Under the pieces are notes generated by a model, which made no database searches, was not told the origin of the DNA, and worked only from the letters and a program-made list of their open reading frames with translations. Shown piece by piece: positions 1 to 28,629 of a DNA stretch of 28,629 nucleotides. The stretch's first letter is position 1. Each line of letters starts with the position of its first letter. Source of the DNA: Paramecium tetraurelia (Eukaryota). Made by a program: the position numbers and the translations under genes. Location of the stretch: NCBI GenBank assembly GCA_000165425.1, contig CT868076.1, positions 62,001-90,629 on the forward strand. The letters are read 5' to 3'.

Positions 1-2546
1 ACTATTAAAGATTAATGCATAACTAATGCCATTGGAATAGATATGTGCTTGGAATACAAATAGTAGTTTACCTGAACCTGCTTGCTAGGACAAGTCATGT
101 ACAACTGCTCCTAGTTCCACATTAACTCACAATGATTGGCTTCAATTATTATAATACACCAAGTAATCAAAATGTACAGTACATGCTATTCCAGATGCTA
201 ATGGTGGATAACCAATTTTAAGAGGATGTTAATAAACTGGCTGGCTTGTTCAACTTATATTGATAGTGAGTAATGCAAAATAAATGATGTTGGAGATCCT
301 TGTGGATGGAATGGAAAAGAATGTAATGATAAATCTTGTTCCACTGCTCCTGCAACATCAGAATATGATGATGATACAAAATGTAAAGCCTATTTCAACA
401 ATAAATGTACAGTTTCATCAGATGGATAAGGATGTATAGATATTCCAGAGAGTTGTGAGTTAATGAATTAGAAACAATGTTATTACAATAGAACTGCACA
501 ACCCTGTTATGTTATTGGACTGGAACAGAGTGTATAACTAAATCTTGTGAAAATGCTCCAATAGAAACAGCAACAGCTGAATAATGTAATAACTATTTAT
601 ATGGATGTACAAAAGATATTATAAAATGCAAAATTAAAATCTGTGAAGATTATATTTTAACAACAGATGAACAATGTAGTTATGCGTTATCTACATGTAC
701 AACAAATGGTATTAATTGTGTAACAAGAGGAACATGTGTTTAAGCTTAAAACAAAGCTGGATGTGTTGTATCTTCTACTGGATAATCTTGTGAATGGATA
801 CCAGATGTCGTAGATTCTCAAAATGTTGTAACTACTGCAGCATATTGTACAATTAAAACTTGTAATACTGCCCCAATTAGTTTATAAACAGATGTAGATT
901 GTGCAAAGTATTTTACAAATTGTACAACTAAAAGTGGAGGAGGTTGTGTTGCTAAATCAAGTTGTTCTGCTGCTTCTGTAAATGCTGCTTGTATAACTGC
1001 ATTAAATGGTACAATATGTGCATGGGATTATACATTAAATAAGTGTAGAGATAAAGACTGTTAAGATTTTATAGGAACAACTCACACCATTTGTTAAACT
1101 TAAAGATAAGGATGTACTGCTGGACCAAATGGTAGATGTGCTAGAGTTTAAAGTTGTGAATTAACTACTATTAGAGAAGCTTGTATTGAAGGCACAAATG
1201 GGCCTTGTTTATGGATTGAGAAGTTTGTCAATAATGATGGGTCAAAAGGAGCTTGTTTTGCATATACATCATGCAAGAGTTTAGCTTGGAATAGTGATGA
1301 ATCTTGTAAATTAATAAGTAATAAATGTACAACTAATGGAACTAATTGTATTGGAATTACTACATGTACTGAGACAAATATTGATGGTGGATGTGTTACA
1401 GGGTATGATGGATCTTGCATTTAATCTGTTCCTGCTTTGAATTCATCTGATCCTAAGATTTGTAAACCATTTAAATCATGTGCAGATGCCTTTTATGCAA
1501 CTCATAAAGATTGTTAAATTGCTAATAAAAAATGTACAACAGATGGAACTACGGGTTGCATTCCTTTAGGTGCATGTTCAACATACAAATCTTAACCAGG
1601 ATGTTAGATAAATGATAAAGGATCTGTAGTTGAATCTGGTGTTATAACTTCAACAGGTGTTTGTACATGGGATTTGAGTACAAGTTCATGTAGAGATTAA
1701 ATTTGCACTGATTTGAATGGTGTTACTCATGGAATTTGTAATTCTTAATTATCAACATGTACTTCAAATGGTACTAAATGTTTACTTAAAACAAATTGTT
1801 CTAGTTATTCAACCTAAATTATTTGTTCAACAGCTGTTGGAAATGATGGACTTTGCTTTTGGGAGGTTGGTTCTGCTTCAAATAATAATACAGCCAAATG
1901 TAGATTACTTTCTTGTGCTGATATTCAAAATGGAACATCTATTAGTGTTTGTTAAGCTGCTTTACCATCTTGCATTTCAAATGGAACTATTTGTATCCCA
2001 AAGGCTAAATGTTCAACTTACACAACTAAAACAGCATGCAATTTTGGTGGATTAGATGGAATTTGTGTATTTACATAATCAACTTCTGCATAGGCTGTGC
2101 CTGATAGTGGAACTTGTACTTTAATGAATTCATGTTCATCTGCAAATAATGATTAAAATGCTTGTGTAGCTGCATAAGATAGATGTTCATGGAGTGCAGC
2201 TAGTTCTAGTATTACAAGTATATGTACAAATCATACATGTGGTACATATAATTAAGTGAGTGGAACTTGTTCAAGATTCTTTAATTGGGATAAATAATCA
2301 TAATAAATATGTTCTATGATTAATGGAATATGTAGAGCCACTGATCCATCAACATTAATATAAAGTGATTGTTTTAAACTTTCAGGATATACATATACAT
2401 GGAATAGTTCAACAAACAAATGCTAAGTTTGTACTAAAAAAGATCAGCCAAATGGTCCTATCAATAATACAATCAATGATACAAATAATACGAATACAGC
2501 TTAAGGGTTATTATTAACATTCATCTTAGGCTATTTGATGATTTGA
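1..2546 (+). CDS. 3' part (5'-truncated by window) of a Paramecium surface-antigen-like Cys-periodic protein with a GPI-type hydrophobic tail; left copy of an inverted pair
   Basis: In the ciliate code the frame is open from ~510 to TGA at 2544-2546. It has regularly spaced Cys and W-x(4-6)-C motifs (KSCENAP, CEWIPD, CAWDYTLNKCRDKDC, CTWDLSTSSCRDQIC) and is Thr/Ser/Gly-rich. It ends NNTINDTNNTNTAQGLLLTFILGYLMI*. Several small insertions break the frame in 1-510, e.g. duplicated tgtta near 505-514. Confidence 0.9.
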
Positions 2547-2614
2547 TCATATTAGATTATAATATTAATTTATATAAATAATTTATACATAGTGTAGTAA
2601 TTATTAAATGTTAA

Positions 2615-2890
2615 TCAAATATTCTTGCCATTTAGATAGTCTACAAATAATGAACCAAGTGATTCTGATTGAAATTACTAGTTACATTTTGGACATTCTG
2701 CATTATAATAATTTCCTTTATATTAATTTATAAAAGATTATTAAAAACATTTCGGACAAGTGTATTTGATATTTCCAATTGAACTTAAGTAATTCTAGTA
2801 AAACTTATTCATTTTTTGTCCAGCATCCTCCTTAAATACCTTTTTTCTGATTCTGTTAAATCAGTTGTTTCCCAAAAACCTCTATAAACT
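2615..2890 (-). pseudogene. Orphan 3' fragment of the VWA/C1-protease/Zn-ribbon gene (copy of 20018-20295)
   Basis: The minus strand reproduces ...FWETTDLTESEK...YTCPKCFQQSFINQYKGNYYNAECPKC...DYLNGKNI*. Two homopolymers are one base shorter than in the intact gene (near 2875 and 2845). Homology stops abruptly at 2890, so the VWA and catalytic regions are absent. Confidence 0.85.
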
Positions 2891-3436: not shown

Positions 3437-3747
3437 ATTAATTAAAAATTATAATAATCATTTACCATAAAACATTGCTATTATATTATCAACTATTCAC
3501 TTCCCTGAAGAATACAATAATATGATTTTTATGCACAATAGATAGATGATTTAATATAGAATCTTATTGATTACATTAATATTTGATTATTAACATCTAT
3601 ACCCCATCATTTCTAGGACAATCACTTCTATTGTATAAAAATTCAATAAATTTGAGATTTTTCAACTAAATTGATTGATCATCAATTTTAATATTCCTAA
3701 TTCACTTAAATTTCCTGTTCTTTAGATTTTGAATATTAATTAAATAA

Positions 3748-5752
3748 ATGTAAATATAAGATGGAAACAATTTGATGCTTAACCTATCTAATGGTCCAAT
3801 AGACAATAGTAGAAGATCCTGCACAAATGTGTTTTGTGCCATCTTTTATGCGGGCATATTGTTGAGTATCTTTGGGATAGGCTTGTACATGAATCAAAGC
3901 GGGAATGTATTGTTGATAGACAGAGGATATGACCCTGATCGTAAATAGAAACAAATATGATAAAGATAGACCATGTGGAATAGACACTTTGAGAGATTAT
4001 CCATTCATCTACTTCACTACTCTCAATAGTGATTTCTTATGGAAGACTGTTTGCGTTTAGGAATGTCCGAGTGTTCCAGTTGCCAAACACAAACATTTGT
4101 AGTTCAATCCTCCAACAACTACAACTGTTCCGACAACAACAACACCCATAGGAACACCCCAAAATTCATAATTAAAATGCGCTGTAAATTCAGTAGTAAC
4201 TTCTTGTAGTTAAGCCACATTATACAACAGCATTAAATGTAATATTAATATATATGCATATAGTCGATTAAAGAGTCTGCATTCCCACAGATCCAGATTA
4301 ATTTAAGGTAGTTCAGGAAGCATTGAAAATGGGTTTCTTGCATTAATTAATTTCTGATATCAGTGGAGCCAAGTATACCTTATTTATATTCATTGTAATT
4401 GGAACTTGCTTTACCTTGTCATTCACTTACCTATTAAAGTGGTGTAGTAAGACTGTAATTTGGTTCATCATCTTTATCATCGTGGTGTTGTCCATCTTCT
4501 TTGGCTATTATAGTTATCTGTAATATAGGGCATCGTAATGAATATATCTATCCAAATAGATCTAGTATGACTATCGGTTTATCCCCGACTGGATATCTAT
4601 TATAATCAATAATTTGGTGGTGTTTTGGATTGGGTACAATAATCTTGACAATTTGTTTTTACAAACGAATCAATCTAGCCATTGCCATCATTAAGTCAGC
4701 ATCTGATTTTGTCACTAAGAATGTCAGTATTGTCATTGTCCCTATATTCTCGACTCTTGCCACTTTTATTTTCACCATTATTTTTATATACATAGCATTG
4801 TAATTATACAATTAAAACTAGTTTAATATGTTCAACTGGTACACCTGGAGATAAATAATAGTAATGGCCTTTTGGGTAATTGAAATACACAGTACTTTAA
4901 TACTTTAGTGGATTCTATTTGTTATTTGCCACCTTTTGGACATATGCTTTGATTATTGGAGTCAATAGCTTTATCATAGCAGGTTCAGTGTGTGTGTGGT
5001 ATTGGCAACAAGGAAAGAGTGGTTAAGAACATGTGTAACCACTCAATTCATCGTGGAAGAGATGTTTTGTCTACCATTTTGGTTCAATTGTCTTGGGTGC
5101 CCTATTATTGGGATTAATCTCAATTTTTAGATCTTTTTTCGAGTATCTATATGTATTTAGTATTCATATAATCAAAATAGAGAAATGCTGAGTATATGAG
5201 AAATACAGATGGCTGTCAATTTTGTTTTAAGTGTTGTGCATGTTGCATATGGTGTTTTGAAAGGTTTTTACAATATTTGAATCAGAATATCTATGTCTAA
5301 ATTAACATGACTGGAGATGGGTTCTTTCATGCTGCCAAAAAAGGTTTGGATATTATGTCTAATAATCCTTCTATTGTTATGTAAGTAGTGGGATTGGGAG
5401 ATCTGATAAATAACATTGCAAGAATCATGATTACATTATCAATCTCTATGTTCTTTTTTAGATCCATTTCTGAATTGCCTCAACTATTATTTGGAGGCAT
5501 TGTCATTAATCCATACAATCCAACCTTATTATTGGCAATCATTATCTTTGTCATTGCCACTGTGTTTACCAATATTTTTGGAGTGGCCATTGAAAGCATT
5601 CTCCATTTATATTGCATTGATTAAGAAATAGCCAGGGCCAAACAGAGTTCAGAAGATGCTGAAATGTGTCCTGCGGTATTATTGATTATATATTATTATA
5701 ATAGGCTTTAAGAGAATTTTTAAATGACAAAGTGTTTACATAATAAAAATGA
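3748..5752 (+). CDS. Choline transporter-like protein (SLC44/CTL family), ~616 aa, 6 introns
   Basis: Family motifs: GPIDNSRRSCTNVFCAIF, RGYDPDHRPCG, YPFIYF, VCVQECP, YHFGSIVLGALL, CCACCIWCFERFLQYLNQNIYVQINMTGDGFFHAAKKG, plus multiple hydrophobic helices. Frame-restoring introns at 3941-3965, 4239-4263, 4535-4559, 4800-4821, 5153-5180 and 5676-5704. TGA at 5750-5752. Confidence 0.92.
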
Positions 5753-5774
5753 AATATTAATAAAGAATTCATAA

Positions 5775-6421
5775 TCAATAATCTTTTTTTGTATTCGTTC
5801 TTGACAACTTATTATTGATGCTCTTTTGACTTTAATTTTATTCCTCCAAATCCAACGTTGACAGGAAATCTTTAATTTTATTAACATTTTCATTTAAATC
5901 ATTCAATAATACCCAATATGAATAAAAGCTTTCTTGAGGATATTTAGATAAATTTACTTTTATTTTCCTACTTAAATTCAATCAATTAATCATTATAAGT
6001 CTCCTGATGCTTTGTGATTGATTAAACTTTTGTTTCCAATTCTGCCATCTTGTCTCAAATAATACTAAGATAGAGGAATACTTTAGATTTCATTAGATCT
6101 CATAGGAGAATCTAATTTTTCTACTTTAACAATCTCTTTGTTTTTAGGGGAAAATGGATGATGCAGGGAGATGAATTGACTTTGGAGTTAGAGAATTTGG
6201 GTTTCTTGAGACCTCAATTGCTCTTCAATTGGTCGTATAAATGCCTATATGGTATTTTCGATGATCTTTTCGATGAAGCATATAATCTGTTAGGTTAGTT
6301 CTTCCTTCTGCAATTCCTTGTCATTATTGACAGATTTACTCTTCTGCATTTTCTTGTATATATGATTAGAGATGATTACCATTTCAACCAAGGATTCAAT
6401 TATACTCTCGAATTTAAACAT
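5775..6421 (-). CDS. Hypothetical coiled-coil protein (~197 aa), paralog A of a tandem pair
   Basis: ATG at 6421 (MFKFESIIESLVEM...). Introns 6054-6081 and 5933-5957 give a continuous frame ending ...SYWVLLNDLNENVNKIKDFL...TKKDY*. Confidence 0.7.
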
Positions 6422-7369: not shown

Positions 7370-9440
7370 TCAATTGATATACGAACATAATTATTTTTAT
7401 TGAACAAAACTCATATAATTGCTTCGGGTTGAATTGAGATCATTCGTAACACTAGACTTGAATTTCAATCTGAGTTTGTCAATCGACTAATTATTGCTAA
7501 CACTGTTGACTTCACTTTGATGATGATTTTTTTATGCGAATTGCTTTTACACATTCCTATAAGATGCCTAAATGACCTTCTGAATCTACTTTGCTTTCTT
7601 TTCTGGATTCTCCGATTTGAAAGCCTATTAATACATCAAAGACAAAACAAGATTATCCTTATGCACTCTAGGAAGTGTGCTAAGTGTATCCAAAACTGTC
7701 TATAGAGGAGGATTTTAGGGAATGTGAAGAGAAGGCAATTACCCAAAAGACTGATGGACATTCTCTGTCTTAATAATTGGCTAAGAAGACCTAGAAGTTA
7801 ATGAAGTGAACTCCGTGCTATTTTCATTCAAAAGATCAGCTTGTGTCTTAATTGTGAATTTATTCCTGATGCAATTTTCATCATGAGATTGTTAAGCTGC
7901 TTGAGGTTTCTTCAATAATCTGGCTTAATACTATTGCAAAGTATTGCTATAGACTTTTTATAACACACTTTGATTCTGAGTATTAACTACTTTGATGCTC
8001 TTTAGATCTTCCTCTGTTATGTTTTATAATAGTTTCACTTGGGACAACTTCTAGCCTTGAGACTCAACCAATTTCTTATTAAGAATGTGCTTGGCTTAAA
8101 AATTTGGTTTATTCTATTAGACATCCTGAGCAGCCTTAAAGATCTGATAATAAATTATAATAAATTTACTTCATCCTATTGATGAATAGTCTACTAGGCA
8201 GTTTCACATTTTTTTTACCAATGCTTAAATATAATGTTCGAATTCTTTTTCATATTTTCAAAAATTTGATAATTACCTAGGTTATCGAAGAATTGTCTCT
8301 TTCTTATTCTATAGACGTGTAATTTTGGAGTAATAACTTTGGCCTTAGTGAATCGAGAGATCTTTAACATAATTTCAACTTCCCCAAATCCTTAAAATTA
8401 TCCATAAGATGACAAAATTATTTGTTTTTCTCCTACTTTCTTAGATAATTCAATCTCTCCATCTATAATAAAGTAGATGTGTGTTGATTTATCATCTTCC
8501 TTAAATAGAATTTCACCAGCATGATGTGTAATCATTTTACATTCTAAAATTATACCCATGAATTCTTAAGGTTCAATAAACTAAAATAGTGGAGTTTTGG
8601 AAAAGTAGTTTATTTTATTATCTAATGCAGCACTCATATACGGATTAATCAACTCCAAATATGCCATCTCACTCAAGTATATTAAATGAGTCTATTCCAA
8701 CGCATAAACTGTTGATGATCTTGCTGTATCCAACTTAATAGCTGCCTCTCCAAACGAACTTTAATAGCTCTTTATTTACATACTCTCCTTAAAACAGTAC
8801 TTTCAATATTATGTAATCTGGGAACACACTGTTCAGTCCATAGGGATCCTATTCAGTCTTTTTAATGAGTTTTGATTGTGAATTCTCCAAGTAATCCAAC
8901 TTGTTAGATCCAACCATCTTCTCTTTTGGTTTCATCACTACCACCTTCCCTTCCAAGATTATATAAAATCGTTTATTTTGATCTCCCTATCTATAAACTG
9001 GATTCAATTGAGGCACTGATTGAAACCTAACTGCATTCTAATAGATACCTAAATTCAGAGTAAATACGACCCAATAACTCAGGAGGCACTTCCTTCCTTA
9101 TTTCCTTGATCTTTTTAATTTAACTTAATTATTCAATCAAAATGGATGATGTTGGTATTATCATATTGGTTAATGTTGCGATGCTCTTTCTCGAATATCT
9201 ACGATAATAATTATCAGGATTCGAATTCTCAGTTATTGGTCTCAATCCTAACTCATTTCTTATTGAATCGATATCAATCAGTTTCTTTTATTTTTTTACA
9301 TCTCTCTGCTAAGTTTACTTCTGTGCCCCCTTTAACATGTGCTTAGATTCACTATCCGAATCAGAATCGCTGGGTTACTGTAGAAAGTCAAAATTAGTTT
9401 TTGTTTGAATACTAAAGGATGATTGTATGTAAGAAGTCAT
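7370..9440 (-). CDS. Protein with two cyclic-nucleotide-binding (cNMP) domains and a low-complexity C-terminus
   Basis: Domain 1: VYRQGDQNKRFYIILEGKV ... GDSFGEAAIKLDTARSSTVYA. Domain 2: GEILFKEDDKSTHIYFIIDGEIEL ... GFGEVEIMLKISRFTKAKV. Introns at 9027-9048, 8759-8783 and 8144-8169. One more intron or frameshift is needed near 7780-7810, so the 3' model is less certain. Confidence 0.85.
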
Positions 9441-9692
9441 TATATAAAAATATTTGATTTTTAATTTAATCCTTCAACTAGGTATTCTCCATGCTATACT
9501 ATCCTATCCTATTCAATTATTTTATATACTCTTTGGTTTTTCAAAATATTTGGAAGGATCCAATTCTAGAATTGTGAAAAGAAACCATTAATCATTTATA
9601 TTATCTATGATGATTTAATGAATCTATTAAAATAATGATAACTCAGATGTATTCTAATAGATTGTAGTATTAAATTTAATTTTTATTAATGA

Positions 9693-17098: not shown

Positions 17099-17582
17099 AT
17101 GAAACGAACAAAGGAAACCATTTTCAGAGAGCATCCTGATTGGCAATAAAGATAAGGTGTTAGTGGTCTGAAAGAATTTGATGGAGAAGATTTATGTAAT
17201 TCATAATAGTAATCCAAAAGAATTTGATTCCCGTAATAAGTTTAACAAGGATCAATAAAAATAGTGGATATTCGAGTAAATTGAAGAGAAGAGAAGAAGA
17301 TAAGAATAAGAAAAGGCAGAGGAAATGGCATATGCTCAATAAACCTTAGAAATCAATAGATTCAGGGGAATGTTATAAGATAACTTTGCATCTAGGAAGA
17401 CTGATATGGGTGTTGCCACCAAACAAACAAATCTCCAATTAGTAATCATTCTTTCAATTTATTATTAGGCTAAGGAGAAAAAAGATAAAGAAGAAAGAGA
17501 AAAATAAGAAAAATTGGCCGCTGAACGTGCTGAAAGAGATTTATTACTTGAGCGTGGTCGTAAATAACCATATCAGGGATGA
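17099..17582 (+). CDS. RIB43A: RIB43A-family ciliary microtubule inner protein, short form (~143 aa)
   Basis: GVSGLKEFDGEDLQFDSRNKFNKDQQKQWIFEQIEEK matches the RIB43A/RIBC GEDL signature, followed by coiled coil (NLQLAKEKK). Introns 17196-17220 and 17442-17468; TGA 17580-17582. Confidence 0.85.
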
Positions 17583-17917
17583 TCATCATAAATATGTTTC
17601 ATCTTTTCATATCATAATTAGTTATATTATTTAATCAAATTATAAGTTTATTAAATATAATAATTAACTTCTTTGATTCTCTGGAGCCAAGATAATGAAA
17701 TAACTTGAATCAAAATTTGTATTTAATTCAAATGCTCTAATTTTACTACCTTAAATCTATTATTCTGAGATAGAATGCTTATCTAAATTTTAAAGTTTCA
17801 TTCTGAAAGTTATTATTTTAAAGTATAATTTCTTAGATCATGCAATTTAATACCATCCATATAAATTATCAAAATTGAAAGTAATCTATTATCAATCTAA
17901 TAGAATTTAGCGCTAAA

Positions 17918-20295
17918 ATGCAGTTCAAGAATTTTCAATCGATTAATTTTAATATTAATATGAATTAAAATAAAACGAATTTATATGGAATTTTGGTAGA
18001 TATTTCAGGATCAATGAAATATCCCTATGAAACAATCGAAAAAGGATCCAACTTAGACAAAAAAATACTATAGCCTAATGAATCTCGATTGGCTTCTGTC
18101 TTGTAAATAATTTAGGGGGCTTTAGGGAAACATGATTTAAAAGATGACCATCTTTTTTTGTCAGCTTTTGGATGCTACCATGATGTTGAAGTTATAGATT
18201 TGGTACCTTTCTTAAAATCCATAATCAATATCGTGAAATTAATAATTACAATAAGAGGGCTTTAATAATATAGCTAAAATTGTTATAAAGATTATCCTAA
18301 ACTTTTATATGATTTAGTAGAAGGGAATGGAGCTAAAAATTTATCCTAATTTTATAAGCTGCAAGAATTTAGGACCGATATTTCAAATATCAAGGCACAG
18401 TTATTATATAATGAATTCAAAAGGAATAAAAAATAATTAAACTCATTTATAGAAAAACTGCCAAAATAAGTGAAAATGACAAGCAATACTTATAGTGCCC
18501 AAGCTCTATTATTAGGAAGGAAATTTTAATCTACTTTAAACCCTATTATTTCAAAAAAACAAAAAAAGATTTAGCAGTAATTACTTAATTTGGATAATTG
18601 TATTCCATTTGATTATTTTTTTGGCAAAATTTAGGAATGCTTACAACCTATATTAGACGAGATTTAAAAGTTAAATAATAAAAATAATAACAAAGCTGAT
18701 GATCTTGAGAATAAACTATAATAAATTCTAGAAAAAGTAAAGAATTAATAATAATAAAAATCAATTGAATATTTATAAGATAAATTGAGAGAAATATAAA
18801 ACATTTAAGAAAACATTATACAAGTTTTGAAGCAATACAGTTTTATTCCTAATGATTTGATTAATGAACAAATAAACCTAGAAAAATTCTAGATTATCAG
18901 CATAGAAGAAGTAGTAAAAGACATTAAAATCGAGGAATATCAATCAAAATATCAAATGAAAAAGGAAGATTTAGATTTTTTTAAGTCATTTGAATCGATT
19001 TGCTATGGATGTACTCCATTGAAGAAAAGTTTGGAGTTGACTTTAAAAACTGCATTCTTAGAATTCAAAAATAAATTCTTGTTTATTGTATCTGATGGAG
19101 ACTCAACTGATGGTAATCCTGTAGAGTATGCGACAGAGTTAAAAAACAAAGGATTTATTATATTTTGTTATTATATTAGTTCTAGTAACAGTGCCTCGAG
19201 TAAAACTAGTTGTATTCAAAAGTAGAATATATTAAGGGAGAAGGAGCCAAGACAATGTTTGAAATAAGTTCTGAATACTCAAATTTTGAGTTTCCTTTAC
19301 GATAAATAGAAAATTATACAAATATCAAATTATCTTAGGATGGCAAAAGCAGATTATTTTTATAAAGTAATAATTCAGAGTCATTTAAATAATTTCTTGA
19401 TTATTTCATGAAAATCTCGAAAGATAATGATAAATTGATTGAAATCGCTGGGAGAATTACAATAGAAAAGTAAATGAGTTCCAGTAAAGGATTTTAACCA
19501 AAGCGATAAATTGGAGGAACATGTTATGCAACTTCTATTGCAACTGTCTATTCTATAATGTTGTAAAAGATTTATAAAAGAGAAGGTGATTACCCAGGCT
19601 TCTTTCGAATAAGGGATCTATTAATACAAGAGTATGGGAAACATGGGGCAATCACCTCTAAGGTTGTTTAAGAAACTTGCTCATACTATAGATTGCAATG
19701 TCGCAAACTAAAATCTATTAGTAAAATCAAATAAGCTTTACATTAGTAGAGACCAATCATTGCAAGATTTGCTTTGTGTGACGATTAATGGAATGCTAAT
19801 ACTGAGAATCAGATGGGATTTATACCTTTCTTTGAAAGAAACCCATTTGGTATTTTGACTACTGTAGGGCCGCAATCAAACAAGAATATAGGAGGACATT
19901 CAGTTGTTTTGTACTCCTATACTGAAGATTACTACTTATTTATTAATTCATGGGGAACTAGTTGGGGAGATAGAGGGTTTTTTAAAGTATAAAGTTTGGA
20001 TGTCTTAGGTGAAATGGAGTTTATAGAGGTTTTTTGGGAAACAACTGATTTAACGGAATCAGAAAAAAAGGTATTTAAGGAGGATGCTGGATAAAAAATG
20101 AATAAGTTTTACTAGAATTACTTAAGTTCAATTGGAAATATCAAATACACTTGTCCGAAATGTTTTTAATAATCTTTTATAAATTAATATAAAGGAAATT
20201 ATTATGATGCAGAATGTCCAAAATGTAACTAGTAATTTCATTCAGAATCACTTGGTTCATTATTTGTAGACTATCTAAATGGCAAGAATATTTGA
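17918..20295 (+). CDS. VWA (split by a helical insert) + papain-like C1 cysteine peptidase + C4 zinc-ribbon protein, ~780-790 aa
   Basis: MIDAS motif GILVDISGSM (DxSxS at 17999-18013); later VWA motifs YGCTPLKKSL and FLFIVSDGDSTDGNP. Protease motifs RQIGGTCYATS (Cys 19522-19524), GGHSVVLYSY (His 19897-19899) and FINSWGTSWGDRGFFKV (Asn 19945-19947). CPKC-x17-CPKC near the C-terminus. One frame break at ~19200-19225. Alternative start at 17960. Confidence 0.88.
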
Positions 20296-22915
20296 TTGAC
20301 ATTTAATAATTACTACCCTATGTATAAATTATTTATATAAATTAATATTATATTCTAATATGATCAAATCATCAAATAGCCTAAGATGAATGTTAATAAT
20401 AACCCTTAAGCCGTATTAGTATTATTTGTATCATTGATTGTATTATTGATAGGACCATTTGGCTAATCTTTTTTGGTACAAACTTAGCATTTGTTTGCTG
20501 AACTATTCCATGTATATGTATATCCTGAAAGTTTAAAACAATCAGTTTATATTAATGTTGATGGATCAGTGGCTCTACATATTCCATTAATCATAGAACA
20601 TATTTATTATGATTATTTATCCCAATTAAAGAATCTTGAACAAGTTCCACTCACTTAATTATATGTACCACATGTATGATTTGTACATATACTTGTAATA
20701 CTAGAACTAGCTGCACTCCATGAACATCTATCTTATGCAGCTACACAAGCACTTTAATCATTATTTGCAGATGAACATGAATTCATTAAAGTACAAGTTC
20801 CACTATCAGCTACAGCCTATGCAGAAGTTGATTATGTAAATACACAAATTCCATCTAATCCACCAAAATTGCATGCTGTTTTAGTTGTGTAACTTGAACA
20901 TTTAGCCTTTGGGATACAAGACAGTTCCATTTGTGAAATGCAAGATGGTAAAGCAGCTTAACAAACATTAATGGATGTTCCCATTTTGAATATCAGCACA
21001 TGAAAGTAATCTACATTTGGCTGTATTATTATTTGAATCAGAACCAACCTCCCAAAAGCAAAGTCCATCATTTCCAACAGCTGTTGAACAAATAATTTAG
21101 GTTGAATAACTAGAACAATTTGTTTTAAGTAAACATTTAGTACCATCTGAAGTACATGTTGATAATTAAGAATTACAAATTGCATGAGTAACACCATTCA
21201 AATCAGAGCAAATTTAATCTCTACAACCACTTGTACTCAAATCCCATGTACAAACACCTGTTGAAGTTATAACACCAGATTCAACTACAGATCCTTTATC
21301 ATTTATCTAACATCCTGGTTAGGATTTATATGTTGAACATGCACCTAAAGGAATGCAACCCGTAGTTCCATCTGTTGTGCATTTTTTATTAGCAATTTAA
21401 CAATCTTTATGAGTTGCATAAAAGGCATCTGCACATGATTTAAATGGTTTACAAATCTTAGGATCAGAAGAATTCAAAGCAGGAACTAGATTAAATGCAA
21501 GATCCATCATACCCTGTAACACATCCACCATCAATATTTGTCTCAGTACATGTAGTTAATTCCAATACAATTAGTTCCATTTGTTGTACATTTATTACTT
21601 ATCAATTTACAAGATTCATCATTATTCCAAGCTAAACTCTTGCATGATGTATAAGTAAAACAAGCTCCTTTCGAACCATCACTATTGACAAACTTCTCAA
21701 TCCATAAACATGGTCCATTTGTGCCTTCAATAGAAGCTTCTCTAATAGTAGTTAATTCACAAGCTTTAAACTCTAGCACATCTACCATTTGGTCCAGCAG
21801 TACATCCTTATCTTTAAGTCTAACAAATGGTGTGAGTTGTTCCTATAAAATCTTAACAATCTTTATCTCTACACTCATTTAATGTATAATCCCATGCACA
21901 TATTGTACCATTTAATGCAGTTATACAAGCAGCATTTACAGAGGCAGCAGAACAACTTGGATTTAGTTACACACCCTCCTCCACTTTTAGTTGTACAATT
22001 TGTAAAATACTTTGTACAATCTACATCTGTTCATAAACTAATTGGGGCAGTGTTACATCTCTTAATTGTACAATATGCTGCAGTAGTTACAACATTTTAA
22101 GAATTTACGACATCTCGCATCCATTCACAACATTATCCAGTAGAAGATACAACACATCCTGCTTTCTCTTAACCTTAAACACATGTTCCTCTCGCTACAC
22201 AATTAATACCATTTCTTGTACATGTACATAACGCATAACTACATTATTCATCTGTTCTTAAAACATAGTCTTCACATAATTTAATTTTGCATCTTATAAA
22301 TATCTATTGTACATCCATATAAATAGTTATTGCATTATTCAGCTGTAGCTGTTTCTTCAGGTGCGTTTTCACAAGTCTTAGTAATACAATAATGTTCCAG
22401 TCCAATAACATGGTTGTCCAGTACTATTGTAATAACATTATTTCTGATTCATTAATTCACAAATCTCTGGAATATCTATACATCCTTATCCATCTGATGA
22501 GACTGTACATTTATTGTTGAGATAGGCTTTACATTTTGCATCATCATCAAATTCTGATGTTGCAGGAGCAGTAGAACAAGATTTATCATTACATTCTTTT
22601 CCATTCCAACCACAAGGATCTCCAGCAGCATTGATTCTTGCAATACTCAATACCTATAACTTAAGTTGAACAGCCAGCAGTTTATTAACATCCTCTTAGA
22701 ATTGGTTATCCACCATTAGCATCTGGACTAGCATACACTGTACATTTGATACTTGGTGTATTATAATATTTAAAGCAGTCATTGTGAGTTAATGTTGATA
22801 GTTAAGGAGCAGTTGTACATGACTTATCCTAACAAGCAGGTTCAGGTAAACTACTATTTGTATTCCAAACACAATCTATTCCACTTGCATTAGTTATGCA
22901 TTAATCTTTAATTGT
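20018..22915. repeat. Right arm of the inverted duplication (partner 1-2890)
   Basis: Reverse complement of 1-2890, covering the antigen 3' end, the 68-bp spacer and the last ~280 nt of the protease gene. Confidence 0.95.
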
Positions 22916-25900
22916 ATATGAACTACATGGTCCTCTTGCCATACAACCAGGAGCAGCTACTTTATTAAGTGCTCTGATTGTACAACCTAGATTTGAATCA
23001 ACTGCAAAGCATTTAGCATGAGTATTATATAAATTTGAAACTTCTATATTTGCACAAGCCAAATCAACACATGTCTTAACAGATGGATTCCAGAAACATT
23101 TTTTATCATTCATATCTAATTTACATTATAATGATGATTTATATAATGAACATGCAGTTTCTTACTTGACATCCACCTGCTCTTGCAACTGTACAAGCCT
23201 ATGAATAATTAGAACATTCTGTATCATCATCATGAGAAGCATCTGATGGAGCTGTATCACATCCTTTTCTAATACAAATAGAATTAAACACTAAGACACA
23301 CTCCCTCTATTGCATTTAGACATTAAGTAGATGATTAATCTGAACATTTTGCAGTCATGATAGTGCAACCATTATTAGTCTAATTTACTGTACAAGTTTT
23401 CAACCAAGAATAACAATTATCATGATTAAATGTAAAACCTGTGGCATTTGCACAAGTTCTAGCCATACATCCTGTACTTCCATTTACAGTACATCCAGCT
23501 TTGATTGCACTACAATTATCATGAGTATAATTGCCTGTTCCTAAAAATACTGTTTCACAAGTAGATGAACTTGAGGCAGGCACACATGCTGAATCATTAC
23601 TAGTGGATGCAATACATAATCCTTCTCCTGCTTGATAGCAACCTGTCATTGCAGTTGAATATCCAGAACATTATGCTGCTTTTTAAACACAAGCAGTTTT
23701 GGCTCTATTAACACTGCATCCCAAATTATATGATTAACAAATTTCATAAGTTAATGATACACCTGTAATCTTAGCACAATCGGTAGAAACATTTAAAATA
23801 GTAATACAAGTGCTTTGAATTATAGAGGTAGCATTTTCCATTTACAGAATAAGTACAAGATTCAGTTGTTCCTAAATACTATTCGCATGTTGACTTATAA
23901 TCTTAACATGAAGTGCCATCACTTAATGAGGTGCAGCCTTTGTTATAAGAGAAACATATATTATGATTCAGATCAGCCCCAGTAATTGTATTACAAGTAG
24001 TACCTGTTATTTTGTAGCAAGAATTTTCATACCATAAACAGGAACGTCTCATCAGCCTATGCAACACATGAAATTCTAAGTTGTATAATTCTTACAAATC
24101 TGTCTAGGAGTGTTAACATCCAGTACCATCCTATAGATTAAATACATTTACTATGATATAATTTACATCATGTCAAGGTTTGAGTCCCTGTCTTTCCATT
24201 CACTAAGCTGCATTAAGTAGAAGGATCTGAGATAGAAATGCATTTTAATGCTTCATCCCATATGCAATCTGCTGAACAATTTTCTCTCAAAGTATAACCT
24301 GAACAACTGATCTCTTTTACTAACAAGCAGTTCCTGAATAATTAACTGTGCAATCAGGATTATATAAAGCACATATATCTTTGGTCAGATTGCTACCAGT
24401 TACATAAACACAATCTGTAGAAGTATTGGTGACAGAAGAGCATTTAGAATGCCAGACACAATTACTTTATGGTCCAGAATCTTACGACCTAGTGCAATTG
24501 TCACTTTTTGTATACTCTGCACAAGTGTTTTTCATTTCCTAACAAGAGGTTCCTGCTTTATTTACAGTACATTTATTATTATAAGAGACACAAATATCAT
24601 GAGTTAAATTTGTACCAACTACATATACACAGTCAGTAGTTGGATCACTAACAGAAATACAACTAGATTTCCAAATGCATTTAGAACCTGAGGAAACAGT
24701 ACATGAATCCTAATTTTGGTAATCTGTACATAAGCTCTTTTTATCTTAACAAGCAGTCCCAGCTTTATTTGATGTGCAGATAGAGTTATACCCAGAGCAA
24801 TCGGAATCACTCAAACCTGAAGTTGCAGTAATGGCTGCACAATCAGTTAACAATCCTCTTACAGGAACACAATTTGAATTGAGATAAACACACCAATCGA
24901 AAGGAGGTTCAGCAGCTGATCTTACACAAGTTTCTTTTGTTGTATATTCCCCACAAATGGCTTTTTTTACTTGACAGCTAGATTAATATTTATTGCTTGT
25001 GCAACCACTATGATAAGATTCGCAAGAAAGATTAAAAAGTTACTTCGGAATATATTGACAGTCAGTAGCAGGATCTGTTACCGAGGTGCATTTTTCATTT
25101 TTCATGATGCATCCAGCTTTAATACATTTAAAAGAATCTACATATAATGAACAACTTTTTTATATTTCTTAACAACCATTTAACTCCAAACTTGCAACGC
25201 AGCCAGCATTAAAATTAGCGCAAATGGCATCTGTTGTTCTAAAAGAGGTGTCTATCAAAATTGTATCCATATAATCGCATTGACTTGGAGATGTTATTTT
25301 ATAACAGTACTAGTACTACCGTGTGCTAACGTCAAGCATTGNNNNNNNNNNNNNNNNNNNNNNNNNNNNNNNNNNNNNNNNNNNNNNNNNNNNNNNNNNN
25401 NNNNNNNNNNNNNNNNNNNNNNNNNNNNNNNNNNNNNNNNNNNNNNNNNNNNNNNNNNNNNNNNNNNNNNNNNNNNNNNNNNNNNNNNNNNNNNNNNNNN
25501 NNNNNNNNNNNNNNNNNNNNNNNNNNNNNNNNNNNNNNNNNNNNNNNNNNNNNNNNNNNNNNNNNNNNNNNNNNNNNNNNNNNNNNNNNNNNNNNNNNNN
25601 NNNNNNNNNNNNNNNNNNNNNNNNNNNNCAATAACTATCAAGCTTATTACTTCCTATGATATATTTGCACAGTAAACCAGATGTAAATGCTTAACAATGC
25701 GAACCATCCCAAATACAATTTGCTGCTGTACCTGATGCTGAGGATGTTGTACAATACGATTCTTCTGTGTACATACTACATTAAGCTTTTTTTATAAAGC
25801 AGCTATTTCCATCTGATGCTGCTGCAAAAGCTGGATTGAACTCTGCACAAATTTTACTTGACATTTCATAGTTATTTATAGATTCAGCAATTGTCAGAAG

Positions 25901-28629
25901 TGACATCATGATACCACAACTTCCATTATTCCATATGCATTTTCCTGCTGATCCAGTTGCCAATGATAAAGTGCATGAACTTTTCGTTAAATATAAACCA
26001 CATGAAGCTTTTTTCTCCTAACAGGCCGTCTTTTCGTAATTTACAGTACAATTATTATTGTAGGTAGCACAAAATGAATCTGTCAAGTAAGTTCCAGTTA
26101 TGTATGAACAATGAGTAGCAACTACTGTAACAGCAAGACAGGCTGTTCCACTCCAAACACATTAACTTGCTTTTAAGGCAGCTGCAGATATTGTGCATTA
26201 TTCTTGTGATGGGTATAAATCACATGTAGCTCTTCTATCTTAACATGCTGTTTTTTATTTATTTACTGTACAATCAGTGTTATAGGAATTACAGATTTAA
26301 TGAGTAAGGTTTGTTCCAGTAATTGAAAAACAATTAGAAAAACGCATACAATCAGAACCATTTAGATCATTTATATAACATTTACCTTATTAAGAGACTG
26401 TGCAATTATCAGTATTACCAGTATAAGCAGTGCAATTTGCTTTAAATTCTTAACACCCATTTCCTTTACCTAAAGATGTACATGCAATATTAAATGCTTA
26501 GCATTTAGCATGATCAAGTCCTGATCCACTTACAAGTGCACAATCAGATGCTGAACTCACTGATTAACAACTTGGTGGTGTGGCTTTATTCATGATACAA
26601 TTTGCTTGTGTTCCAGTTGCATTAGATTTATAACAATTTACATCTGTTGTACCATATCCTGCACATGTAGATTAAATTACAATACAACCACTACCATCCT
26701 TTTTAACCGAACAAGTTGGGTCTACATTTTAGCAATCTTAGAATGTCAATCCACTTCCAATTTTTAAAGTACAATCTAATGTACATGCAGTTGAAGTGCT
26801 AGCATTAGCTACATTTGTGCATCCTTATCTATAAGCTTTGCATATATCTTATGTTCCTTTAAACGTAGAACAAGGTCCTGTTGCAAAAGTTGATAATGAA
26901 TAACATATTCCATTAATCCATTTACAATCATCTTAAGCATTTAAATTTGATAAAGTCTTGTGACATTAACTGGAAGTCTTGTAATTTGAACAAACCGGTT
27001 ATTTTTGTACACATCCTTAAGATCCCACTTTTGCAATTATTGTACATGTTTCATTCTGAGTTTGATATTTAAGACATTCTTCATCTGAATCAAATAGATC
27101 AGAATCTGGAGTGTCATCACAAATTGCATTTCTACAAACTGTTCCTGTCCAATAACAATTCTCTTATGTAGATGTAATTTTACAATTCTATTAAATTTGA
27201 TATGAAGTGCAAGCAGAAGCTAATGGTATACATGCTGTGCCATCATCATTGACGGTACATTAATTGAATATATTATAGCAATCATTATGTGTTGTTAATA
27301 TTATATTAGTACATGTCTTTTCAACACAATTAGATCCATTCCAATAACAATCACCATTAGATTTCGATCCATCTTTACAATTTTACTGAACTAACTATGA
27401 ACAACTTGTGGGCTTAACCATACATCCATCTTAACTATTATTTGAAATGCAAGGATATGATGTTTAAGTACAACTACCTTGAGCATTAGTAGTTGTGCAT
27501 GTGCTCAAGTAACTTTAACAATTATCAAATGTGAATTACCCTTTTGAGAGTGCTCCTGGTGAACCTGATAAGTTTGCAGTTGTACAAGATTTTTCAACGC
27601 ATTTGTTTGATAAAGAATCCCAAAAACAGGTTGGAAATGCTGCTCTTGTGATATTACAATTTTCAGATGATTTTCTAGAATCGCAAGTTTTAGGTAAATC
27701 TTAGCATCCTTAAATAGTTGAGGTTCCATTTATTGTTATTGGATTATTAGCCACACAAGAAGATAAGTAAGCTTGACAGTCTGAAGTTGTTTAAATAGTT
27801 TTGGGAGCAGTATTGCAGGCTTTATCAATACATTAAGATCCTGTCCAACCACAAGATTATTTATTAGCTTTTATTTTGCAAGCAGCTTCTATTGTAATTG
27901 CTTCACATTTCAGAGGTAATGTAACACATCCTTTTCCAGTGTTGCTTAATGTACAACTTGAATAATAAGTTTGACATTCAGAATGAGATGTTATTGAATT
28001 TGAAGCCATTGCACATTATTTCATATAACACCTTGCTTTCCAGATACATATATTGTTGTTTAAATCTTTATCGCAAATTGATAAAGTTAATGAGTTTTCA
28101 CATGTTTTTTCAACACATCCTGTATTTGTAGAATTGACAGTACAGGTATTCAAAAATTATTAACATAGTTCATGACTATTATTACTAGAGGGAGCATTCG
28201 CACAAATCCTATCTTTGCAACTTCCACTTGCAGCATGCCAAAAGCAAGGTTATCCTAATGAATTTTTGATACAAGCAACTTCTATTGAGATTAGTGAACA
28301 AGTGGTGTTTATTGTACATCCACCTCCATTTTTGGTTATACATTTATTTGCAGGTAAATATGTTTCACATGCATCATTTGTATTCAATGTTATAGGAGCA
28401 TTGTCACATGTTCTCTTTTGACATCCTCCTCCTGATTACACAGTACAAGTAGATAAATAAGAAGTACATTAATCATGAGTAGTATTAGACTTTGGAGCAT
28501 TTACACATGTTTTTTCTTTGCAAGTTGAATCCCAAATACAATCAAAATTATTGATACTTTTAACACATGCCGTTGAAATATTAGCAGCTGAGCAATCTCC
28601 ATTTAGAACACATCTCCCCCTTACTTAGT
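20364..28629 (-). CDS. Large surface-antigen-like Cys-periodic gene (5' end outside window), frame-disrupted as assembled; pseudogene or error-containing sequence
   Basis: Continuous Cys-periodic repeats (CYWNGSNCVEKTC, CVEKTCENS, CTVNYEKTACQEKKASC) and the same C-terminus as the left copy; stop at 20364-20366. Many 1-2 nt insertions (~20933, 20981, 21488, 21557, 21960, 22299, 22390, 22650, 23159, 23295, 23815, 24045). In-frame TGA at 22031-22033 where the left copy has TAA (Gln). Confidence 0.88.
25342..25628. other. Assembly gap (287 N) inside the surface-antigen gene
   Basis: Run of N; the flanks on both sides encode the same repeat type on the minus strand. Confidence 0.99.

What the first reader, a model, noticed from the sequence alone, without database searches (positions are those of the whole stretch)
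17918..20295. Prodomain-less, apparently cytosolic VWA-papain protease-zinc ribbon fusion
Seen in sequence: a complete MIDAS set (DISGS ... GCTP ... SDG), a complete C1 catalytic set (Gln19507, Cys19522, His19897, Asn19945 in NSWG) and a terminal CxxC-x17-CxxC ribbon, all in one gene. There is no hydrophobic signal peptide, no I29-type inhibitor prodomain, and CY replaces the usual CW. Established: classical C1A cathepsins have a signal peptide and I29 prodomain and are lysosomal or secreted; MIDAS VWA domains are metal-dependent interaction modules. Inference: this is a ligand-gated intracellular protease with sensor-plus-effector layout, possibly for defence or regulated proteolysis. It is the best candidate for an uncharacterised system in this window.
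Basis: partly seen in the sequence, partly recalled or inferred. Interest (0 to 1): 0.8.

Follow-up and report, generated by a model that had tools for sequence, protein, structure and literature searches.

The report
Undescribed sensor-protease family across eukaryotes
This Paramecium gene encodes a papain-type protease joined to a metal-site (VWA) domain and a zinc ribbon, a layout shared with fungi, corals, rotifers and amoebae, and it likely works inside the cell as a protease switched on by a bound partner, possibly in defence.

Summary
The motifs are real and lie in one gene. The window reads in two frames, but all 4 runs laid lack two bases at 19189-19195. The break is therefore an error in the reference: the gene is one intronless frame of about 777 aa, and the public model bridges it with a false 26-nt intron. 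The protein belongs to a conserved eukaryotic family (ciliates, filamentous fungi, a chytrid, sponge, corals, molluscs, bdelloids, springtail, Rhizaria, a parabasalid). Of 160 full-length members, 141 keep both the MIDAS and the catalytic Cys/His. The modelled ortholog shows a VWA fold split by a large variable insert, followed by a papain fold. In many relatives the insert holds a glycine-zipper hairpin: 13 of 101 overall and 31 of 54 in a fungal set. This protein lacks it. One relative carries two Death domains. No description of the family turned up in nine literature searches. Best reading: a cytosolic, MIDAS-gated protease, likely in defence or death signalling (0.4). Gating and role are inferred, and one P. 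sonneborni paralog has lost the catalytic Cys.

The parts
17960..20295 (+). Single intronless gene (about 777 aa once the 2-base reference error is allowed for; 791 aa from the ATG at 17918): split VWA, papain-fold protease, zinc ribbon
17999..18013 (+). MIDAS DxSxS on VWA strand A
   Evidence: D 160, S 160, S 155 of 160
18200..18990 (+). Helical insert inside the VWA. Its second part (about 18461-18990) is the most variable region: coiled-coil-like here, a Gly/Ala hairpin in many relatives
   Evidence: boundaries approximate, carried over from the ortholog
19007..19099 (+). MIDAS Thr (GCTP, 19013) and Asp (SDG, 19094)
   Evidence: T/S 152 and D 152 of 160
19189..19195 (.). Error in the reference sequence (two extra bases, three wrong letters) that causes the apparent frameshift
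   Evidence: 4 of 4 runs; frame switch against orthologs
19375..19476 (+). Last VWA helix (alpha7 equivalent) and conserved linker helix leading into the protease
   Evidence: helices 476-488 and 493-510 of the ortholog model; linker pLDDT under 50; conserved columns
19495..20050 (+). Papain-fold cysteine protease: Gln19507, Cys19522, His19897, Asn19945
   Evidence: Cys 156, His 159 of 160
20152..20226 (+). C4 zinc ribbon CxxC-x17-CxxC
   Evidence: Cys in 160, 160, 159, 159 of 160
2618..2890 (-). Broken copy of the gene's 3' end (zinc ribbon), at the edge of an inverted duplication (95% identical)
   Evidence: both copies present in DNA-like runs

Best explanation
The gene encodes one protein with a split VWA domain, a papain-fold protease with an intact catalytic set and a zinc ribbon; it is likely cytosolic and is predicted to stay off until a partner binds the MIDAS metal, which would switch on or aim the protease, likely in defence or cell-death signalling. 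Proposed steps: (1) shown: single frame, motifs and fold. (2) Inferred: no signal peptide or prodomain, so the VWA half takes the place of the I29 inhibitor. (3) Inferred by analogy with integrin A-domains and complement factor B: an acidic residue of a partner completes the Mg site and moves the last VWA helix, which runs straight into the linker and the protease. (4) Inferred: the variable insert beside the MIDAS Thr loop sets partner specificity or membrane position. In relatives it does so through a glycine-zipper hairpin, here through a coiled coil. (5) Inferred: the zinc ribbon binds substrate or partner.
For: 141 of 160 full-length members keep both MIDAS and catalytic Cys/His. The ortholog model matches VWA over residues 4-505 (Mfa5, Z 16.3, rmsd 4.1, 182 aligned) and papain-family enzymes (Der f 1, Z 16.8, rmsd 2.8, 174 aligned); complement C2a matches the VWA part at Z 14.5, rmsd 3.4, 179 aligned. 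The last VWA helix is followed directly by a linker helix and the protease. Precedents: a 10 A shift of helix alpha7 on MIDAS ligation (PMC5054827, passages) and Mg-dependent MIDAS binding that precedes activation of factor B (PMC11868072, passages). Defence-like traits: mean top-residue frequency 0.25 in the variable insert against 0.55 in the protease; 42% against 72% identity between two Paramecium orthologs; at least 5 copies on one 386-kb contig; 3 Adineta and 2 Montipora paralogs; one member with two Death domains and one with WD40 repeats among 29 longer members scanned; a hairpin in 13 of 101 members against 0.26 in shuffles and 2 of 101 in the rest of the protein. vWA domains with C-terminal peptidase effectors occur in bacterial conflict systems (PMC7159879, passages).
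Against: No activity, ligand, substrate, localisation or phenotype is known. The model does not fix the VWA-protease orientation (pTM 0.57, linker pLDDT under 50). The gene is single-copy in this genome, with no expansion. One P. sonneborni paralog has Phe at the catalytic Cys, and the other's public model lacks the His region. The oxyanion Gln is Glu or Lys in 43 of 160 members and the third triad residue is Asp in 34. The Death and WD40 fusions are 1 each of 29, in unnamed records. This protein has no hydrophobic hairpin. Neighbours in the window (surface antigens, choline transporter, cNMP-binding and RIB43A-like genes) give no defence context.
Confidence: 0.4

Rival explanations
1. A constitutive cytosolic processing protease or isopeptidase with a housekeeping or developmental job. 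The VWA and zinc ribbon only recruit substrate (possibly a ubiquitin-like tag), and the hairpin, where present, is a membrane or lipid-droplet anchor.
For: Architecture and length are very stable across supergroups. Single copy here. Asp replaces Asn in 34 of 160 members, as in many isopeptidases (recalled). Hairpins give weak C19orf12 and Gly-zipper hits, below cut-off. VWA-plus-zinc-finger adaptors such as p44/Ssl1 appear among the structural matches.
Against: The hairpin is scattered on the tree (13 of 111 tips, 10 changes, shuffled mean 12.4), and tandem arrays and fast insert divergence fit a housekeeping enzyme poorly. No deubiquitinase family appeared among the listed Pfam matches of 60 members (best 5 shown per protein).
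Confidence: 0.3
2. An all-in-one death effector. Triggered self-cleavage or opening frees the helical insert, whose glycine-zipper hairpin enters and permeabilises a membrane. The Paramecium copy would be a derived form without the hairpin.
For: Uncharged Gly/Ala runs of 25-45 residues at one fixed place, right after the conserved LP, in 13 of 101 members and 31 of 54 fungal-side hits (shuffle means 0.26 and 0.75). Weak ApoL (E 3e-4) and Gly-zipper (E 1e-3) hits. One Death-domain fusion. Fungal gasdermins cluster with sensor-proteases (PMC12881547, passages).
Against: All those Pfam hits are below the gathering cut-off. The fungal count is biased because the query carried the hairpin. 88 of 101 members lack it by this test, this protein included. 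The insert sits inside the VWA fold, so release needs two cuts or unfolding. No conserved cleavage motif was identified.
Confidence: 0.14
3. In ciliates the gene is drifting or acts as a non-catalytic scaffold, with the protease dispensable.
For: Catalytic Cys replaced by Phe in one P. sonneborni paralog. Only 62% identity between the P. tetraurelia and P. primaurelia proteins. No second full copy in this genome.
Against: The catalytic set is intact in P. tetraurelia, P. primaurelia, P. pentaurelia and Tetrahymena utriculariae, and the protease is the best-conserved region among them. The frame is open in all four runs.
Confidence: 0.1
4. Two separate genes, or a frameshifted pseudogene.
For: The window itself reads in two frames.
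Against: 4 of 4 runs lack the two bases. Orthologs and 160 homologs are single chains.
Confidence: 0.02

Closest known systems
Papain family C1A (cathepsins, Der f 1, papain) and prodomain-free C1 relatives such as Xylellain
   Same: Fold (Z 16.8 to Der f 1, 14.4 to Xylellain); Gln, Cys, His and Asn in order; NSWG..WG..G.F motif.
   Different: No signal peptide or I29 prodomain. Q-x4-C-Y instead of the QxxCGSCW motif (recalled). Only two conserved Cys columns in the protease, so no papain disulfide set. Fused VWA and zinc ribbon. Identity 14-22%.
Complement factor B / C2 (VWA followed by a protease)
   Same: MIDAS VWA directly N-terminal to a protease, with Mg-dependent partner binding before activity (PMC11868072, passages); VWA match to C2a at Z 14.5.
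   Different: Those are secreted serine proteases with CCP modules. This is a cysteine protease without a leader, with a roughly 260-residue insert in the VWA. An analogy, not homology of the whole.
Bacterial MoxR-vWA ternary conflict systems (vWA-effector fusions)
   Same: vWA with a C-terminal effector, sometimes a peptidase; Death-like domains attached (PMC7159879, PMC8195603, passages).
   Different: There the peptidases are trypsin- or caspase-like and mostly inactive, with MoxR and a third component in an operon. This family is eukaryotic, papain-fold and catalytically intact, and its one prokaryotic hit looks like a contaminant.
Fungal gasdermin-protease pairs; ApoL / glycine-zipper membrane hairpins
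   Same: Protease combined with a possible membrane-inserting module (relatives only); weak ApoL and Gly-zipper hits.
   Different: One chain, no gasdermin match listed, hits below cut-off, and the hairpin is absent from this protein.

Membership tests
Papain-like peptidases (clan CA, C1) | Catalytic Cys, His, Asn and oxyanion Gln in papain order | tested here: met
Papain-like peptidases (clan CA, C1) | Papain fold | tested here: met
   ortholog model, Z 16.8, rmsd 2.8, 174 aligned; Foldseek top hits all C1
Papain-like peptidases (clan CA, C1) | Peptidase activity | not testable with these tools
   needs an assay
Classical C1A cathepsins | N-terminal signal peptide | tested here: not met
   VWA strand A starts at about residue 7; N-terminal hydrophobicity peak 1.29; SignalP not available
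Classical C1A cathepsins | I29 inhibitor prodomain | tested here: not met
   no Pfam I29 match at E 0.1 on either frame; the region before the protease folds as VWA
Classical C1A cathepsins | CGSCW motif and conserved disulfides (recalled) | tested here: not met
   Q-x-G-G-T-C-Y; Trp after Cys in 6 of 160; two conserved Cys columns in the protease
MIDAS-type VWA domain | DxSxS...T...D | tested here: met
   complete in this protein and in 145 of 160 members
MIDAS-type VWA domain | VWA Rossmann fold | tested here: met
   Z 14-16 to many VWA structures over residues 4-495
MIDAS-type VWA domain | Metal-dependent ligand binding | not testable with these tools
   needs an assay
Factor B / C2 | Chymotrypsin-type serine protease with CCP modules, secreted | tested here: not met
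   papain fold; no CCP match, no leader
MoxR-vWA ternary conflict systems | vWA with an effector at its C-terminus | tested here: met
MoxR-vWA ternary conflict systems | Linked MoxR ATPase and third component | tested here: inconclusive
   none among 13 window ORFs or 12 neighbours of relatives; whole genome not searched for MoxR
ApoL / glycine-zipper membrane effectors | Long uncharged Gly/Ala hairpin | tested here: not met
   longest uncharged run 14 residues in this protein; present in 13 of 101 relatives
Papain-fold deubiquitinases (Josephin, OTU, UCH, MINDY) | Profile or structural match to the family | tested here: inconclusive
   not among listed matches; both lists are truncated

The most novel reading that the evidence does not exclude
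An unrecognised, pan-eukaryotic one-chain immune or death module. A MIDAS sensor triggers a papain-fold protease and, in fungi, many invertebrates and Rhizaria, unmasks a glycine-zipper hairpin that attacks or docks on a membrane. This would be a cytosolic counterpart of complement factor B and of gasdermin-protease pairs, built from different parts, with the ciliate copies as hairpin-less signalling forms.
Probability: 0.2. Interest if true: 0.85.

Novelty: new variant of a known kind. Interest (0 to 1): 0.6.

Why it matters
A papain-fold protease controlled by a VWA domain instead of a prodomain would be a new way of regulating C1 enzymes. The family is conserved across ciliates, fungi, invertebrates, Rhizaria and a parabasalid, yet every named record seen is 'hypothetical', 'uncharacterised' or labelled for one domain only. 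It has members in two tractable organisms (P. tetraurelia, Aspergillus nidulans), so the questions of gating and of a role in protist or fungal immunity can be tested directly. The public gene model also needs correcting: its intron is an artefact of a reference error.

Tried and rejected
Real intron at the frame break: candidate GT..AG introns were enumerated, but DNA-like runs already lack the two bases, so rejected. No RNA holder is on record; the RNA label of X17 and X18 is a guess. Their contigs do not cover 17600-17887 and stop at 20309-20318, a weak hint only. No RNA-like contig covers the gene end to end (gaps near 18620-18810), and one run shows a one-base gap at 18834 near a contig end, treated as an error. 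Single-sequence fold of the window's protease domain: pLDDT 43.6, unusable. VWA-protease contact: no prediction was obtained, so it remains open. Prokaryotic or viral origin: 1 locus in the GTDB scan with a single motif pattern. It is a 5.8-kb contig with one ORF, and 1 of 300 scored genomes of that phylum has a full-length match (11 others match short domain pieces, 1 genome not scored), so read as likely contamination. Viral contigs: 0 of 40 pattern matches confirmed; BFVD matched only generic C1 domains. These motif scans are not sensitive, so absence from prokaryotes is not shown. Truncated 470-590 aa homologs stop at one shared point and look like first exons, not a separate form. Donor or HGT direction: ciliates form one clade (support 1.0), but deep nodes are unresolved and the tree is only midpoint-rooted (111 of 160 rows, FastTree); no claim made. 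ESM Atlas: whole protein, cluster of 322 eukaryotic members with no function; protease part, nothing at 0.9 or above. Sequence search of solved structures: only short domain-level matches. Earlier findings of this scan: none. Literature searches that found no description of the family or these genes. The script failed before its last region, so the zinc-ribbon figure is missing.

Full report
Setting. The window reads in genetic code 6 and is the end of a 90.6-kb contig of a 72-Mb genome. A public protein that is 99% identical is named as Paramecium tetraurelia GSPATT00038357001.

Observation. The MIDAS motifs lie in a frame from 17918 to 19411; the catalytic Gln, Cys, His, Asn and the CxxC-x17-CxxC lie in another frame from 19111 to 20295. 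Pfam gives VWA and Peptidase_C1 just above cut-off and no I29. The public model joins the frames with a 26-nt intron and lacks 8 residues that orthologs keep. All 4 runs laid on 17600-20450 lack two bases and differ at three more between 19189 and 19195, and share three G-to-A differences at 19476-19490. These differences bring the sequence into line with the orthologs. The break is therefore an error in the reference, and the gene is one intronless frame of 777 aa from the ATG at 17960, where orthologs start. Two runs guessed to be RNA carry contigs across the junction (18810-20318 and 18987-20309); this is only a weak hint of transcription. The gene is single-copy, apart from a broken 3' fragment at 2618-2890 at the edge of an inverted duplication.

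The family. Searches returned 10 long relatives of 1167 candidates, 283 of 7125 (best 120 listed) and 101 of 8000 with a fungal query. A profile search found 500 representatives at E 1e-30 or better among 1.84 billion (best 150 listed). Named members come from Paramecium, Tetrahymena utriculariae, many filamentous ascomycetes including A. nidulans, a chytrid, a sponge, corals, a nemertean, an annelid, bivalves, bdelloid rotifers, a springtail, a tardigrade, a nematode, Leptophrys, Nonionella and Tritrichomonas. The ESM Atlas cluster is 100% eukaryotic (322 members). Of 276 proteins held, 160 were full-length; the other 116 were dropped as partial. Among the 160, 145 have a complete MIDAS, 155 have catalytic Cys and His, 141 have both, and the four ribbon cysteines are nearly invariant. 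Tyr follows the Cys in 147. The DxSxS lies in the first 30 residues in 134, leaving no room for a leader or prodomain. The only prokaryotic hit looks like contamination, and none was confirmed in viral contigs, but those scans rest on short motifs. Ciliate members form one clade; deeper branching is unresolved.

Anatomy. A model of the P. primaurelia ortholog (79-row alignment, pLDDT 76.5, pTM 0.57) shows a VWA fold whose halves (about 1-80 and 345-490) enclose a helical insert, then a low-confidence linker helix, a papain fold, a long helix and the ribbon. Structure searches match VWA domains at Z 14-16 and C1 proteases at up to Z 16.8. The insert is the least conserved part: mean top-residue frequency 0.25 against 0.55 for the protease, and 42% against 72% identity between P. 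tetraurelia and P. primaurelia. Right after a conserved LP, it carries an uncharged Gly/Ala-rich run of 25 residues or more in 13 of 101 non-redundant members (200 shuffles: mean 0.26, maximum 2; 2 of 101 in the rest of the protein). The same holds for 31 of 54 fungal-side hits (mean 0.75), a set biased by a hairpin-bearing query. These runs give weak ApoL, glycine-zipper and C19orf12 hits below cut-off in 5 of 12 hand-picked members and are scattered over the tree. The Paramecium proteins have a polar helical segment there. Of 29 longer members scanned, one has two N-terminal Death domains and one has C-terminal WD40 repeats; an RNase H and an SRP-alpha match look like gene-model artefacts. 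Tandem copies occur (at least 5 on one 386-kb contig).

Mechanism. In integrin A-domains, an acidic ligand completing the MIDAS shifts helix alpha7 by 10 A (PMC5054827, passages). In factor B, Mg-dependent MIDAS binding precedes activation of the adjoining protease (PMC11868072, passages). Here the equivalent helix leads straight into the protease, and both sites are kept together across supergroups. The simplest reading is that the VWA half replaces the prodomain as the switch, with the insert setting specificity or membrane position. A defence or death role is suggested by the variable insert, paralog arrays, the hairpin and the Death fusion, and by bacterial vWA-effector systems (PMC7159879, PMC8195603, passages) and fungal protease-gasdermin pairs (PMC12881547, passages). 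All of this is inference. Against it: a single copy here, no informative neighbours, an undetermined domain orientation, a P. sonneborni paralog with Phe at the catalytic Cys, and Glu or Lys at the oxyanion site in 43 of 160 members. I put the gated defence protease at 0.4, a constitutive adaptor-guided protease at 0.3, an all-in-one membrane effector at 0.14 and a non-catalytic drift in ciliates at 0.1.

Novelty. It works like factor B in layout and has a C1 fold, but it fails the defining features of classical C1A cathepsins and of factor B. Nine literature searches found no description of the fusion or of these genes. I saw search listings for those and passages of six papers (also PMC3417536, which does not mention it), no supplements, and no subscription journals, MEROPS or InterPro. 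Verdict: a real, undescribed eukaryotic protease family, a new variant of the VWA-protease kind; interest 0.6.

Noticed in passing
window 1-2890 and L080:3769-10000 against window 20018-28626: An inverted segmental duplication, matched in pieces over about 8.6 kb at 77-95% identity, holding a large Paramecium surface-antigen gene (PF01508) and the 3' end of this gene. The copy at 20364-24000 has many frameshifts: a pseudogene or more reference errors.
   Followed up: partly
window 19200-19225: The public gene model's intron is an annotation patch over a 2-base reference error; other predicted introns on small contigs of this assembly may be the same.
   Followed up: yes
P0144 and P0004 (P. sonneborni): Two paralogs: one has Phe in place of the catalytic Cys, and the other's model lacks the His-Asn stretch.
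   Followed up: partly
L053:3535-4581, L067:13790-15223, L042:10338-11471: Fungal-type loci of the family have F-box-like, ankyrin-repeat and LysM/chitin-binding genes nearby; anecdotal, 3 of 12 neighbours scanned.
   Followed up: partly
L057, L062 and proteins P0080-P0125: Several animal-type members break at one place between the conserved 'G.L' strand and the catalytic His, consistent with a shared intron.
   Followed up: partly
L007:671-2902: A full-length member on a 5.8-kb, one-ORF contig filed in a Chlamydiae MAG; likely eukaryotic contamination.
   Followed up: yes
window 3662-5804, 8035-9473, 17172-17582: Ordinary neighbours: a choline-transporter-like gene, a cNMP-binding protein and a RIB43A-like gene.
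   Followed up: no
window 25342-25628: An assembly gap (run of N) inside the large surface-antigen gene.
   Followed up: no
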